A stretch of 64,000 nt of DNA from Eledone cirrhosa (lineage: Eukaryota). This document shows, one piece after another, positions 1,195 to 63,720 of this stretch. Both the position numbers and the translations under genes were made by a program. Each line of letters starts with the position of its first letter. Positions within the stretch are counted from its first letter, which is position 1. The notes under the pieces were generated by a model that saw only the letters and a list, made by a program, of their open reading frames with translations, was not told where the DNA came from and made no database searches. The stretch spans positions 37,882,001 to 37,946,000 of the forward strand of contig OZ024751.1 of NCBI GenBank assembly GCA_964016885.1, in the 5' to 3' direction.

Positions 1195-1372
1195 CAGTGA
1201 GAGAGAGAATGAGTGACATATATACAAATATATATAATCCCGACCGCGAAGCTAAGCGGTTCAGGCTTGTCTTTGCAGACGGGATTATACCTATTTCTAT
1301 ATCCACTCTGCATCTCCCTATGCTTTGAGCACTCCCATGAATTGTTGTCTCCTCGATCTCAGCATCGGGAAC
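1195..1372 (+). mobile_element. Old fold-back element, probably PLE-derived
   Basis: Diverged inverted arms around TATAATCCCG...CGGGATTATA; TTGAGCACT motif at 1325-1333; microsatellite flanks. Confidence 0.4.
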
Positions 1373-3112
1373 CCCCCCCCCTCTCTCTCTCTCTCTCTCT
1401 CTCTCTCTATATATATATATATATATATATATATATAATATATATATATATATATATATATATATATATATATATATATATATATATATATATATGTGTG
1501 TGTGTATAGATATAATATATATGAATGTGTTTGTGTGTATTAAGAATTCATTACATATGCATCATCTTTCTTTCTAAAGGGAGTGTATGTTACAAGTCTC
1601 GGCTAGCTGGGCATTAAGAGACTGAGTGTTTGTATGTTTGAATGAGTGTGTGTTGGTACATTAATATGCAACATCCTAGCGGTTGTAGATTTGTTCTTCC
1701 TTCAATCCTACAACAGCTACAACAATGTCCTATTATACATTATATCGTGTATATTGAAATTCGCAACACTACATATTTGTTATTTTCTCCTGAAAACTCT
1801 GGTTTTCTTGCTTCTTAAAAATGACACCTTATCACTGGGAGCCAATATAGCTGGCTTCTTTTATCGGCGAATCATTGATTGGTTGAACAGACTAATATAA
1901 CCTTCACGCACATGTATACACACACACACGTACACACACTCATACACAGAACATATACCTACACACACATACACACCCACTCATACATACACACAACATT
2001 TACCTACACGCACGTACTTACATCATACACACGCGCACATACACACAACATATATATACATGTATATCGCACACACACACACACACACACACACACACAC
2101 ACACACACGATGTACACCACGTATACATACACCACGTACACATACATTCACACGTCCTTATACATACAAGCACATACATCTCGCAGGCACACGCACATGT
2201 ACACATGTACATATACAAACACACACAAACATGCACACATACACACGCATACTTATATCACGCACATACATAATATATTACACTAGAAACATTGAGGAAA
2301 TAAATAATCCAGAATACAGCGTAAAATCTAATTTCTTTTGAGAGATTGGCATAGATTTTGTGCGAAACTCAATCGCTACATTACAATCACGTTGACGTAA
2401 AGGTTGACGGGGGAACGCAAACTGAAAAAAAAATTAATAAAGCCATTATCTTTGAAAAAATCAATTTGTATACGTCATTTTTGTTTCTTGTGAGAATCAG
2501 TTCTTTGTTTCAGTAATGAAAAAATAAAAAAATGGGTGAAATTAAATTGGAAACAACACTATGGTATATGATCAACATTAACTAGTGCTTTGTATTTTAT
2601 AAGTTTAATTTCAAACTATTGTTTTACTTAATGACTCTCAGACAATATGCAAGCAACGTATTACATATTCAACAAGGGTAATATAAGATATACGCTTACC
2701 AGTTATGTATGTATGTATGTATGTATGTATGTATGTATGTTCTCCTGTTTTTTAAATTTTAATACTTTTTACCAATATAGAGTCGGTTTCTAACTTAGAC
2801 ACAAGATTCTTTCATTGAATGTAAACATCAACTAGGTAGATATATATGCAATGTCTGCATGCGTGCATGTGTGTGCAGGTATGGATGTTATTGTACGTGC
2901 GGATGTGGATGTTTTAAGTTATATATGTGTGCATGTGTATATATTTTGTATCTGTACCTGTGTACATGCAGTTATTACATGCAGAATGTTTGGAATAGTT
3001 TACATATTTTTACTGTTCCATTGATGGACTGTACTTGTAATTTCCTAACTAGTCGAGTTCTTTCTGTTTCTGTGAAACCCAGCGAATCTCTGTATGTATG
3101 TACGTATGTATG

Positions 3113-3303
3113 TACGAGGGGGTGCTGAAATGTTCCTGGCTGTAAGGTTATCGCAAAAGGGTAACGTTGTTACATTTACAAGCGGGGTAGGACCGCTGCA
3201 ATATGTTTGAATCTGAGAAGTGAATATGCTGAATAAAATCATAATTAACTGATCCTCCTGAATCTTTTTTATTCAAAACCAGGAACTTTTCAGCACTCTC
3301 TCT
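3113..3303. mobile_element. Mariner-type MITE
   Basis: TA + CGAGGGGGTGCTGAAATGTTCCTGG on the left and the inverted CCAGGAACTTTTCAGCACTCTC on the right; no coding capacity. Confidence 0.75.
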
Positions 3304-3535
3304 TTAACTTGGTGGGGTTTTTTATTATTAAATTCCACCAATATTCCTTTGAGCCATCAATCTTAACAAATTTGATTTGGTCTTATGAAGTGCATTCTTG
3401 ATTGTTCACCATGCCACAAAGGAGCTTATAACGAAAAGCTATTCTTTCACAGTTGTCACTAACGTGACTAAGATCTTCAGTCTTTTAGCACAACCTTCAT
3501 TTATCAAATGGCAGGGATTTCTTCTTCCTGGATTA

Positions 3536-3635
3536 TACGAGGGCCGGCTGAAAGCTTCATAGGCTGACTATGAAGGATTGTTGCTAGAGCTGTGAAATCT
3601 TGCATGCATTAATGACAACTCTTATTAATAATTGT
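3536..3635 (+). mobile_element. Second Mariner-type terminal fragment
   Basis: TA-CGAGGGCCGGCTGAAAGCTTCATAGGCTGAC resembles the TIR at 3113; no partner TIR seen. Confidence 0.45.
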
Positions 3636-3645
3636 TTCTTTCCAT

Positions 3646-3760
3646 GGCGTGTGGCTGAGTGGTTAGAGAATTGGATTCACAATCGTGAGGTTGTGAGTTC
3701 GATTCCTAAACTGGGCGAGACGTTATGTCCTTGAGCAAGACACTTTATTTCACGTTGCTG
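3646..3760 (+). mobile_element. tRNA-derived SINE with V-domain-like core, 3-prime truncated
   Basis: A box TGGCTGAGTGG, B box GAGTTCGATTCC, then TGTCCTTGAGCAAGACACTT as in V-SINE cores. Confidence 0.7.
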
Positions 3761-60575: not shown

Positions 60576-61139
60576 TATATATATATATATATATATATAT
60601 ATATATATATATATATATATATATATATATATATATATATATGTATATATATATATATCGTTTGTACTTGTCTGACAATGACTTGGTCTGAGAGTGTCAT
60701 GAGATGAAAGTAATAACAGCGTCAAAAGTTCATTTCACCCATTTGAACACACACAAACTCTTATCTTTACCTTGAATTTCGCATTTACTCTTTAAATGTT
60801 TAACATAGAGCTTTCATTCATAAATACCCCAATATATAAGGACTCCTCCACGACATGAAATATATACTTCGGTGGGGAAATAATATACATTAAATATGCC
60901 ATGTACCCAATAGAGTTAATGTAGTATTCTAGTCGTAAACAGTCTATTTATAATATTGATGCGTGTAATTCAATGAACAGGATGTTGCTCAAAGGATCGA
61001 AGAGCTGAATATTCATCGTCAAAAACAATGACCAGCTATCTACTTCACAACAGCATCTGCTCCTTTAACCTAACACACTGTACTAAATTCACCCATTTAA
61101 TTTACACACGAACTAGTTTTCTACTTGTAGGTACATGGT

Positions 61140-61230
61140 CTGTTTGGCAGAGTCATTGGAGCGTTCGGGTCTTTGTTACGGGTATCTGAGTTATGAGATT
61201 AAATCCCGCTTCAATCCACTTTACCTTCAT
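61140..61230 (+). mobile_element. Degenerate SINE head
   Basis: TGGCAGAGTCATTGG...GAGATTAAATCCCGC...CTTTACCTTCAT. Confidence 0.4.
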
Positions 61231-61904
61231 TCAAGAAAGTAACAACCCGTTATTGATTCAGGCCTCTCTTCTACCAGCTGTCAGATTCTGGATTTTCCAT
61301 TGGATCAGGGGAGGGTTTGTCAAGTGAATATAGGTGTCTGCTCATGACTGTTAGGCACCTAAAACCCTTAACAAAACCATTGTACACACTACCAAATCAT
61401 ACGTGATTGTGAGTGATTTCTTCATTAGTACAAGCCTAAGATTCTGTCATAATTCATTTACTTCTCATACCAAAGTCATTCAGTCATTGTTATATCACAC
61501 GTGTTTCCTATACAGGTCCACCATCAGAAACATAAACTCTAACTCCTTGTACTCCTCTTTGAAGCTTCTTCACGTCTGACTCAGAATAATTAAGAAAGAA
61601 AATACTTTCTCTTCATTAATATCACACTGTTCTATTGACGCTTGAAAGAATTTATATTGTTTTATGGAAGAAATAAATATTTGTGAATATTAAAAAAAGA
61701 TATTATTGTTGTATTAATTTAATATTAGCTGTAGCTTTATTAGGTATTTATCTACATATAAAATGGTGGAATGTCTGCCTGCTCCTGCTGCTTCATGTAA
61801 GGCTTGTGTGTATATATATGTTGTATGTATGTACGTACATATGTATGTATGCATATGTGTGTATATATGCATATAGATGTATATATACACATACATACAT
61901 ATTT

Positions 61905-62210
61905 GCACACAGACACACACACACACACTCACACACACACACACACACACACACACACACACACAAATATATATATATATATATATATATATATATATAT
62001 ATATATATATATATATATATATATATATATATATATATGTATATGTATATATATATATGTATATATATATATATATATATATATATATATATGTGTGTGT
62101 GTGTGGATATGTGTATATATATATATATATATATATATATATATGTGTGTGGATATATGTATATATATGTATATATGTATGTGTGTAGATGTATGTATAT
62201 ATATAAACAA
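61905..62210. repeat. (CA)n/(TA)n compound microsatellite
   Basis: Direct inspection. Confidence 0.95.
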
Positions 62211-63420
62211 TCATACATATGCATATATAGAAATTATACATATAACGTATATGTATGTCTGCGAGTGCATATTTTGTATACAACATATACAACATTTATA
62301 TATTTTTTCATGAGAAAGATTCCATAATTTATCTGGCATGTATAGGAAGAAAATTAACCACAATAACAAGTATCTCGCTTTGAACTCCACTGCCCCTCAT
62401 TCTGCCAAATATCAACCAATACAACGCGTTCTTTGATGCTATTTTCTTTTGATAGCTTAAATCAGATTCATTGACTTTTTCAAAATATGAGACTTGTTGT
62501 TTTTCATTTCGTGTTGTTGTTGCTGTTGTTGTTGTTGTTGTTGTTGTTTTTGCTTATTTCTTTTTACGCTCTTCTATTAACTAATATAATCTACATACAT
62601 AATATGGCCGCCAAAGTTTTCTGCTACAATCCAACAGCAACAACCTTTTATATATTAACATATGAAAAATAAATAAATAATACATACACACACACACACA
62701 CACACACACATATATATATATATATATATACAATATAATATATAATATACACATGTATGTATGTATATATAAAGTATGTACTTGTTTTCCTCGCCGACAC
62801 TCCAGTATATAATTAGGGTCATAGGGTCTGTTAAGTTGACGGAGGTTAAATAATAAATATGTAATTTAGTTTTTATTTCCAACTCACAACGTTTTCCGTG
62901 TTGAATTGTTTTACATGAAAATTAATAACAAATATATATGTGTGTGTGTGTGTAATATATATATATATATATATATATATATATATATATATATATATAT
63001 ATATATATTTGTGTGTGTGTGTGTGTGTGTGTGTGTGTGTGTGTGTGTGTGTGTGTGTGTGTGAGTGAGTGCGTATCTGTTTGTGCGTGTGTGTTTGATA
63101 TATATATATATATATATATATATATATATATATGTGTGTGTGTGTTTGTTTGTATGTGTATGCAAATACACATACACAAGTGTATATCTGCTTGTATGCA
63201 TATCTATTTCTATGTAGGGTTGTATAGATACCATGCTTTCTATAATGCTGTTTACTGCTTTTTTTTTCGAACATAAAAATGTGAATATACAGAATATCCT
63301 CAAAAACTGAAATATTTCCAAATATTCAGAATATATATTTTAAAGGGATATACACATAGACAAACATACACGTGCTAAACACCCACCTACGTATATATAT
63401 ATATATATTTTTTTTTTCCA

Positions 63421-63720
63421 TTACCATCGAAAGGCGTCTGACGAGCCGCGGATTACAGAGTCGGGATAGATCGATACACATCGAACCTTGAGCTGATCAG
63501 TGGCGAAACGCGCGTCGCGAACCAATGAAAGTAATGAAGGAGTAACCAATCGTCCTTGTTATTTTATTTCACTATAATACACTCTGTATAGCTCTACACC
63601 TTGACACTGAAGTGAACCTAAACATCGAGTGCTCACCCGGGTGAACCTACAGTAACTCCAAGTTACACTCCCTGGTGGATTTATCTGGATATATCTGGAT
63701 ATATCTGGATATATCTGGAT
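63421..63720 (+). mobile_element. PLE pseudo-LTR-like element
   Basis: HHR, then TCGAGTGCT motif at 63625, 3-prime end GGTGGATTTATCTGG with tandem ATATATCTGG repeats running into (TA)n. Confidence 0.78.
63433..63523 (+). ncRNA. Type I hammerhead ribozyme with about 50-nt loop II
   Basis: GGCGT-CTGACGA-GCCGC...GTGGC-GAAA-CGCGCG-TC/GCGAACC; palindromic ACGCGCGT; stem I is short (3 bp plus a bulged extension). Confidence 0.78.

What the first reader, a model, noticed from the sequence alone, without database searches (positions are those of the whole stretch)
1325..63633. Shared TYGAGYDCY motif about 40-65 nt before the 3-prime junction in otherwise unrelated families
Seen: TTGAGTACT (5655, 7525), TTGAGTACC (47944; minus 47024 and 17619), TCGAGCGCT (46893), TCGAGCTCT (47332), TTGAGTTCT (60520), TCGAGTGCT (63625), TTGAGCACT (1325) and a looser match at 59934-59949. 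All are on the element sense strand at a similar distance from the terminal microsatellite. The core is often self-complementary (AGTACT, AGCGCT). In copies 14-131 and 7461-7579 the 3-prime segment begins only 2-4 nt before the motif. Two families also share the terminus GGTRGATTTATCT. Inference: a cis signal for RT/endonuclease binding, dimerisation or transcription start. I do not know of a description of it.
Basis: partly seen in the sequence, partly recalled or inferred. Interest (0 to 1): 0.7.

Follow-up and report, generated by a model that had tools for sequence, protein, structure and literature searches.

The report
TAR-like hairpin pair in Penelope retroelements
The short motif is one strand of a predicted bulged RNA hairpin, shaped like HIV's TAR element and conserved in Penelope-like jumping genes of several marine animal lineages, where two such hairpins likely tell the element's telomerase-like enzyme where to start copying.

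Summary
The motif is real and positioned: 12 of 18 matches start 40-65 nt before a microsatellite, 0.3 expected. The families are not unrelated. Most are short ends of Penelope-like elements (PLEs) in (TA)n, with hammerhead cores or halves and inverted heads; no RT gene is in the window. A metagenome scan for Hydra-clade hammerheads, blind to the motif, found it downstream of 15 of 41. It is the 3' strand of a hairpin, RCUC-stem-loop-stem-U(U/C/A)-GAGY-RCU, with compensatory changes and a two-base bulge starting with U in 19 of 19. That matches the arginine-sandwich geometry of TAR and 7SK. Five loci running into a Hydra ORF carry two hairpins 55-67 nt apart before the start codon. Insertion ends fall just 5' of hairpin 2, and inverted heads mostly just 5' of hairpin 1. 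Best reading, inferred: each hairpin docks the RT and sets a start site, which would explain the PLE tail and inverted ends. Binding is untested. Sites 47332 and 59934 are unsupported. I found no description in six searches.

The parts
5637..5663 (+). Family A copy A3: bulged hairpin (5' strand 5637-5640, motif 5655-5663), 54 nt before the (TA)n junction
   Evidence: (model from non-window sequences, E 2e-4)
35815..35841 (-). Family A copy A7: hairpin and motif; element 35770-35959 with an inverted head ending 8 nt before the hairpin
191..217 (-). Family A copy A2: hairpin and motif; element 146-306, head ends 9 nt before the hairpin
   Evidence: hairpin is in the minimum-energy fold
35568..35594 (-). 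Family A copy A6: hairpin with UC bulge; element about 35526-35731
15..131 (-). Family A copy A1: inverted head joined to a 3' segment that starts just before the motif (60-68); the hairpin's 5' strand is lost
7461..7578 (+). Family A copy A4: same structure as A1 (motif 7525-7533), probably from the same ancestral junction
47390..47573 (+). Family A copy A8: inverted head and 3' end, motif deleted
47024..47045 (-). Family B copy B2: hairpin and motif; element 46984-47175 with hammerhead-like core and palindromic head
   Evidence: (E 0.1)
17619..17642 (-). Family B copy B1: motif and wobble-containing partner strand; element about 17583-17738
   Evidence: (E 3); weak folding
47930..47952 (+). 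Family B copy B3: hairpin with a U-G pair in the outer stem
   Evidence: E 0.55; weak folding
1305..1333 (+). Family C (distant relative of A): degenerate hairpin with two mismatches, motif 1325-1333; no hammerhead core recognised
   Evidence: pair probability 0.13; not found by the model
46859..46901 (+). Family D: hairpin with a longer inner stem, motif 46893-46901; element 46362-46946, head ends 11 nt before the hairpin
   Evidence: in the minimum-energy fold, probability 0.52
46744..46798 (+). Family D hammerhead-like motif with a non-canonical core base; mirror copy at 46460 on the minus strand
60445..60528 (+). Family F: hairpin whose strands are 75 nt apart, motif 60520-60528; element 60017-60574, head ends 6 nt before the hairpin
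   Evidence: probability 0.93
60227..60375 (+). Family F type I hammerhead-like motif with about 115 nt in stem II
63581..63633 (+). Family G: hairpin (5' strand 63581-63584, motif 63625-63633); family 3' end at 63673-63675
   Evidence: weak folding in this copy (0.05)
63433..63520 (+). Family G type I hammerhead-like motif with a palindromic helix III
48006..48112 (+). Solo arm of family G that ends 15-20 nt before the hairpin position and lacks the motif
33289..33477 (-). Solo arm of family F with hammerhead; ends 7 nt before the hairpin position
17446..17511 (-). Solo arm of family A; ends 8 nt before the hairpin position
47332..47340 (+). Site E: motif match 44 nt before (TA)n with no partner strand and no hammerhead; probably chance or decayed
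59925..59950 (+). Site H: loose match; pairing ambiguous (folds best as a different, perfect hairpin)

Best explanation
The motif is the 3' strand of a predicted bulged RNA hairpin that is conserved in the end/leader region of Hydra-type Penelope-like retroelements, and each such hairpin likely serves as a docking site that makes the element's reverse transcriptase start copying a few bases 5' of it. Shown by sequence: the hairpin reads RCUC, a variable inner stem and loop, a two-base bulge (U, then U/C/A), GAGY and an unpaired RCU. Loci that run on into an ORF have the order hammerhead, hairpin 1, 55-67 nt, hairpin 2, start codon 31-48 nt after the start of motif 2. Inverted heads and solo arms mostly end just 5' of hairpin 1. 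Inferred: the bulged U forms a U.A-U triple between two G-C pairs and binds an arginine of the RT-endonuclease protein, as in TAR and 7SK. Two hairpins would give two priming sites: priming at site 2 makes the 3' end, and priming at site 1 from the other target strand makes the inverted head, so the stretch between them is the one-sided PLE 'tail'. The hairpin also appears to stall the enzyme, since rearrangement joints cluster inside it.
For: Motif-blind test: 15 of 41 stem-bearing Hydra-type hammerheads with enough flank have the strict motif within 150 nt downstream, against 3 of 71 stemless matches, 2 of 41 upstream and 0 of 41 reversed (Fisher 1.4e-5 and 7e-4). Structure: 167 of 167 cells paired, 4 of 7 pairs with two-sided changes including G-C versus A-U at the outer pair, CUC/GAG invariant in 26 of 26. 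With bulge size left free, 19 of 24 hairpins have two bases, U first in 19 of 19. A model built only from 8 metagenome hairpins ranks five window motif sites first. Pairing survives a 75-nt span in F (probability 0.93). Two-hairpin leaders precede a Hydra ORF start in L050, L061, L063, L103 and, as a variant, L064. The L063 ORF has Hydra motifs and folds like telomerase RT. Ends: the L063 3' copy leaves its own leader 4 nt before hairpin 2, and 7 relatives end 3-14 nt before hairpin 2 of L103. Window arms end 5-9 (A), 12 and about 0 (B), 11 (D) and 6-7 (F) nt before hairpin 1, although the hammerhead-to-hairpin spacer runs from 26 to 77 nt (P about 0.02). 7 of 10 well-aligned hairpin-less metagenome copies stop within 6 nt of it. 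7 of 14 listed joints in family G land inside the hairpin, 2-19 nt before the motif. PMC11167929 reports internal RT starts at two sites that define the tail, a need for RNA 3' of the start, and a predicted dimer. TAR requirements match the conservation pattern.
Against: No binding or priming experiment exists. The window has no RT ORF, so the clade of its elements is inferred. The end-to-hairpin distances are confounded by AT-rich stretches just 5' of the hairpins, are uncertain by several bases where alignments run into (TA)n, and use post hoc cut-offs: 22 of 32 hairpin-less rows were dropped for lack of a close reference, and most kept rows are one broad family. G arms end 15-20 nt away. 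Single-copy folding is weak in B1, B3 and G (0.05 or less) and C (0.13); in B2 and C the antisense strand folds better. The covariation alignment was fitted to the model and its rows are related. The model misses C, D, F, G, E and H. 26 of 41 hammerheads lack the strict motif in the DNA held. The 96-nt RNA stretch printed for the Poseidon element PAc has no such motif, so this may be clade-specific.
Confidence: 0.55

Rival explanations
1. The two hairpins are a 5' leader control element of the element's mRNA: a true TAR/7SK mimic that affects transcription elongation, or an operator by which the protein represses its own translation. The fixed distance to insertion ends is then a by-product of AT-rich spacers.
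For: The pair sits directly before the start codon in five loci. Local geometry equals TAR and 7SK pseudo-ASM3. In Penelope and a Chlamys element the transcription start lies in the pLTR (PMC8557442 passage).
Against: No conserved apical loop like TAR's: loop length varies from 3 to over 60 nt. It does not explain why two classes of ends each sit 5' of a hairpin over spacers of 26-77 nt.
Confidence: 0.25
2. The signal acts as DNA: a promoter element, an endonuclease recognition site, or a hairpin in the single-stranded cDNA used for second-strand synthesis.
For: The Drosophila Penelope endonuclease needed the tail for recognition (as cited in PMC11167929). B2 and C fold better on the antisense strand. 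Joints cluster in the hairpin. The unpaired RCU is conserved (19 of 19).
Against: Two-sided covariation and partners up to 75 nt away do not fit a duplex DNA site. One-sided changes in the stems are G-U type on the sense strand. A2, A3, D and F fold on the sense strand only or mainly.
Confidence: 0.12
3. The motif is only the last recognisable trace of common descent of the 3' ends, or chance, with no present function.
For: Window families do share some wider similarity. Site E looks like chance. One A copy lacks the motif.
Against: An invariant core with compensatory flanks persists in 7-11 metagenome families and in published coral and sea cucumber consensus sequences, while loops and spacers are unalignable. 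It is repeated twice within one leader.
Confidence: 0.04

Closest known systems
Hydra clade of Penelope-like elements (Craig et al. 2021, PMC8557442)
   Same: Type I hammerhead near the 3' end, (TA)n target, 5' truncation, inverted heads, one-sided tail. By eye, 3 of the paper's 6 new consensus sequences carry the full hairpin (Hydra-2_Amil and Hydra-2_Ajap at the 3' end, Hydra-1_Ajap twice in the leader) and 3 carry looser variants.
   Different: The passages and supplement parts I read describe no conserved hairpin or motif after the hammerhead. The window copies have no ORF and do not match the Hydra-1_Obim hammerhead.
PAc Poseidon element in vitro (Frangieh et al. 2024, PMC11167929)
   Same: Internal RT initiation at two sites that bound the tail; RNA 3' of the start is required; protein predicted to be a dimer.
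   Different: The binding motif was not identified. The tail is 30-40 nt and partly coding, whereas here the hairpin spacing is 55-67 nt and non-coding. The 96-nt printed RNA stretch lacks this motif.
Arginine sandwich motif of HIV TAR and 7SK stem-loop 1 (PMC6189040, PMC11885821)
   Same: A paired base, a two-base bulge with invariant first U and free second base, then G-C, A-U, G-C. The UU bulge is the natural HIV-2 form.
   Different: The bulge is on the 3' strand with GAG in the basal stem; there is no conserved apical loop; a conserved unpaired RCU follows; the element is a retrotransposon, and triple formation and arginine binding are untested.
3' stem-loops of LINEs/SINEs and RT-binding elements of telomerase RNA (recalled, no call)
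   Same: A small RNA structure recruits the RT and fixes where copying starts or stops.
   Different: LINE stem-loops lie upstream of the start and are copied. Here the hairpin that would set a start lies downstream of it and is left out of that copy.

Membership tests
Penelope-like elements (window copies) | ORF with telomerase-like RT and GIY-YIG endonuclease | tested here: inconclusive
   No such ORF in the window; tblastn with 4 Hydra-type proteins gave one hit at E 0.83. Copies are short remnants, so absence is expected.
Penelope-like elements (window copies) | Type I hammerhead in the terminal repeat | tested here: met
   Full cores with stems in D (variant core), F and G; core by eye in B2, only the 3' half in A, none recognised in C or E.
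Penelope-like elements (window copies) | 5' truncation with adjacent inverted copy, extension on one end only | tested here: met
   Palindromic heads in A, B, D and F; 8 opposite-strand joints listed for G.
Penelope-like elements (window copies) | Insertion into (TA)n microsatellites | tested here: met
   loose ends behind 63675 are (TA)n in all four runs.
Hydra clade (locus L063, which carries the hairpins) | RWK and DKT motifs, CxCX5C linker, C-terminal GIY-YIG, single ORF under 3 kb | tested here: met
   All read in the ORF translation and conserved in 85 aligned relatives; motif names from PMC8557442.
Hydra clade (locus L063) | Telomerase-like RT fold | tested here: met
   Model pLDDT 91; the top three Foldseek matches are telomerase RTs, E 1.5e-8 to 8e-8. 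Pfam found no family.
Hydra clade (window copies) | RT phylogeny places the parent element in the clade | not testable with these tools
   No genome is held and no ORF is in the window; assignment rests on the shared hairpin, hammerhead and target.
Arginine sandwich motif (TAR/7SK type) | Bulged U two bases before an A-U pair that is flanked by G-C pairs, with a paired base before the bulge | tested here: met
   against the definitions read.
Arginine sandwich motif (TAR/7SK type) | U.A-U triple forms and an arginine intercalates | not testable with these tools
   Needs NMR, probing or binding data.
Lentiviral TAR element | Conserved apical hexaloop above a 5'-strand bulge | tested here: not met
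   The loop varies from 3 to over 60 nt and the bulge is on the 3' strand; no Rfam match in 5 loci.
Non-LTR retrozymes | Head-to-tail tandem units, each with a complete hammerhead | tested here: not met
   Window copies are dispersed single or inverted remnants; definition from bioRxiv 2026.07.22.740005.

The most novel reading that the evidence does not exclude
Hydra-type Penelope-like elements carry a tandem pair of TAR-like arginine-sandwich hairpins that dock a dimer of their telomerase-like RT and set two priming sites, one per target strand. This single RNA module would account for the PLE tail, the inverted 5' copies and cis preference, and would be the first defined RT-recruitment signal of a PLE, convergent with TAR and 7SK.
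Probability: 0.4. Interest if true: 0.85.

Novelty: new variant of a known kind. Interest (0 to 1): 0.72.

Why it matters
How Penelope-like elements choose their template and start site, and why they leave a one-sided tail and inverted ends, is stated as open in both PMC8557442 and PMC11167929. A conserved hairpin of about 30 nt, present twice, whose positions predict both classes of ends, makes this testable with a few point changes in an existing kind of in vitro assay. These RTs are the closest relatives of telomerase, so their RNA-docking mode bears on how telomerase RNA binding arose. The hairpin is also a practical marker: it orients and classifies ORF-less TA-embedded repeats of a clade whose protein Pfam misses.

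Tried and rejected
Conserved peptide: frames through the motif hit stops and give no shared residues (by eye), and in ORF-bearing loci the motif lies before the start codon. Splice signal or branch point: no fit by eye. Palindromic dimer or DNA site: only some copies are self-complementary. A small hairpin with the motif as loop (seen in A and B folds), and pairing of the motif with downstream sequence: not kept across families; the upstream partner replaced both. Folding of the last 70 nt alone was not significant except at H, because that range left out the 5' strand. Rfam: the 150 rows shown of 413 for the window were microsatellite-driven matches below gathering scores; 5 loci gave one weak unrelated hit. 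No genome is held. No RNA holder listed, so expression, start sites and self-cleavage are untested. Naiad and Chlamys consensus files showed no 3'-terminal hit among the places returned for 11 short strings (strings broken by line ends would be missed). Rows for the C head, and for A6, A5, G2 and I, were misaligned and not used; A6, A5 and G2 were redone. Earlier findings of the scan held nothing on this hairpin. Viral contigs and prokaryote genomes were not scanned.
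Full report
1. Observation. All cited 9-mers are present. The window has 18 matches to TYGAGYDCY on both strands. 12 start 40-65 nt before a microsatellite block on their own strand, a zone covering 6.0% of non-repeat positions where 0.30 are expected; in reverse orientation 1 of 18 does. The 12 are six groups, and the motif was drawn from them, so the window alone cannot settle the matter. 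No genome is held. That the host is a cephalopod is my impression from repeat style, not a call result.

2. What the repeats are. Self-alignment shows dispersed families in (TA)n, many with palindromic heads. A descriptor scan found type I hammerhead-like motifs in D, F and G and in solo arms at 15091, 17891 and 33472. B2 has a core by eye, A only the 3' half, C and E none. 5' truncation, an adjacent inverted copy, a one-sided tail, hammerheads and (TA)n targets are the described marks of Penelope-like elements (PMC8557442, passages; PMC4209133, parts 1-2 of 4). No RT ORF is in the window. Reads laid on G put the family's usual end at 63673-63675, followed by (TA)n in all four runs. The motif is therefore 51 nt from the end, and the 'shared terminus' lies outside the family end.

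3. An independent test. The supplement of PMC8557442 (parts 1, 2, 52, 53 read) lists six new Hydra-clade consensus sequences. By eye, three carry the motif in a full hairpin and three carry looser variants; Hydra-1_Obim has none at its 3' end. I then scanned metagenome contigs for a Hydra-type hammerhead pattern that does not contain the motif (120 loci from 13 of 64 parts of the collection). 47 of 122 matches have stems I and II. Of the 41 with enough flank, 15 have the strict motif within 150 nt downstream, against 3 of 71 stemless matches, 2 of 41 upstream and 0 of 41 reversed. Two of those 3 are real hammerheads that my filter missed. The 18 motif-bearing loci form 11 groups at 80% identity, 7 at 70% and 3 at 65%. 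Where a microsatellite follows, it starts 34-65 nt after the motif (8 loci), as in the window. This scan says nothing about other PLE clades.

4. The motif is half of a hairpin. Upstream of the motif lies RCUC, followed by bases complementary to those before the motif. Such a partner within 30 nt occurs at 15 of 53 hexamer sites near hammerheads and 10 of 672 elsewhere. With bulge size free, 19 of 24 hairpins have a two-base bulge, U first in 19 of 19, then U (16) or A (3), and ACU or GCU after the stem in 19 of 19. A covariance model from 8 metagenome hairpins ranks five window motif sites first (E 2e-4 to 0.1); 9 of its 13 hits up to E 10 are motif sites, and C, D, E, F, G and H are missed. 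On 26 distinct hits all 167 cells pair, 4 of 7 pairs change on both sides, including G-C to A-U at the outer pair in the window copies, and CUC/GAG never varies (0 of 500 shuffles for four measures, 41 of 500 for the fifth). The alignment was fitted to the model and rows are related, so this leans in favour. Single-copy folding is mixed: the hairpin is in the best fold of A2, D and F (probability 0.93 over 75 nt in F), about 0.5 in A3, and weak in B1, B3, C and G; B2 and C fold better antisense. E has no partner and H is ambiguous.

5. Two hairpins, two kinds of end. L063 holds a 718-codon ORF with the Hydra motifs (3233 relatives) whose model matches telomerase RTs best. Its leader has two hairpins, and its 3' copy leaves the leader sequence 4 nt before the second. 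L050, L061, L103 and, as a variant, L064 show the same order: hammerhead, hairpin 1, 55-67 nt, hairpin 2, then the start codon 31-48 nt after the start of motif 2. Seven of 15 one-hairpin copies align well to L103 and end 3-14 nt before its hairpin 2; the other 8 have no close reference. Inverted heads and solo arms in the window end 5-9 (A), 12 and about 0 (B), 11 (D), 6-7 (F) and 15-20 (G) nt before hairpin 1, while the hammerhead-to-hairpin spacer is 26-77 nt (four of five families within 12 nt, P about 0.02). Of 32 hairpin-less metagenome rows, 10 had a close reference, and 7 of these stop within 6 nt of hairpin 1. These cut-offs are post hoc, most rows are one broad family, and AT-rich stretches before the hairpins blur and may cause the pattern. 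In G, 7 of 14 listed joints land at 63606-63623, inside the hairpin, and 2 skip past it. None of the 40 variant rows shown falls in 63612-63637, but 86 rows were hidden.

6. Mechanism. Shown: the conserved pairing pattern, the tandem arrangement and the positions of ends. Inferred: the hairpin binds the element's protein and sets a start a few bases 5' of itself, at AT-rich sequence that can pair with a nicked (TA)n target. Priming before hairpin 2 would give the 3' end with hairpin 1 about 50 nt inside; priming before hairpin 1 from the opposite strand would give the inverted head. PMC11167929 (parts 1-2 of 4, supplement files 1 and 3) found internal initiation at two sites bounding the tail, a need for RNA 3' of the start and a predicted dimer, but named no binding motif; its printed 96-nt RNA lacks this one. 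The conservation pattern equals the stated needs of TAR: essential first U, free second base, an A-U pair between two G-C pairs, UU in HIV-2 (PMC11885821 and PMC6189040, passages). Hydra proteins have near-invariant arginines at R37, R484 and R486, which are candidates only. I put the existence of a functional conserved hairpin at about 0.9 and the RT-docking role at 0.55. Leader control (0.25), a DNA-level signal (0.12) and mere descent (0.04) are the rivals.

7. Novelty. Six full-text searches returned no paper describing this hairpin; Rfam has no match. I also saw passages of PMC7229834 and PMC13282606 and part 1 of 5 of bioRxiv 2026.07.22.740005. The library lacks most subscription papers; Repbase reports, the PAc sequence file and figure images were not readable, and any of them could mention it. 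It works like other RT-recruiting RNA stem-loops (recalled) and looks like an arginine sandwich, but it is not a TAR. I rate it a new variant of a known kind, interest 0.72, mainly because it makes the origin of the PLE tail and inverted ends directly testable.

Noticed in passing
window 63680-63718: The G copy ends in four repeats of a 10-base unit beyond the family's usual end; possibly reiterative copying by the RT, or altered target DNA.
   Followed up: partly
window 46344-48130: Seven insertions or fragments (D, B2, E, A8, a short A piece, B3, G arm) are stacked in one TA-rich site; L087 and L010 show the same stacking of different families.
   Followed up: partly
window 46744-46798 and 46410-46465 (minus): Family D's hammerhead has U in place of the core G8 in both arms, whereas its relative at 15091 (minus) has a canonical core.
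   Followed up: no
window 60227-60375 and 33330-33477 (minus): Hammerhead-like motifs with about 115 nt in stem II, far longer than the minimal forms described for PLEs.
   Followed up: no
window 39838-40574: Inverted and duplicated repeat with a hammerhead-like core at 40267 and no hairpin motif; may be another PLE clade.
   Followed up: no
window 17793-17956 (minus) and 14995-15200 (minus): Hammerhead-bearing solo arms without the motif and without a full copy in the window.
   Followed up: partly
window 9053-9657: Tandem array of 13 copies of a 46-base unit, 97% matched.
   Followed up: no
window 50826-58830: About 8 kb of trinucleotide-type repeat with long stop-free frames of low complexity.
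   Followed up: no
window 8070-8310 and about ten other places: A dispersed SINE-like family, 75-90% alike between copies.
   Followed up: no
L063 2704-4860 (minus): An intact Hydra-type RT-endonuclease with over 3000 relatives gets no Pfam family, although its fold matches telomerase RT.
   Followed up: yes
L016 2611-2716 (minus): A hairpin pair 73 nt apart lies upstream of a hammerhead with no ORF between them, suggesting a short non-autonomous unit.
   Followed up: no
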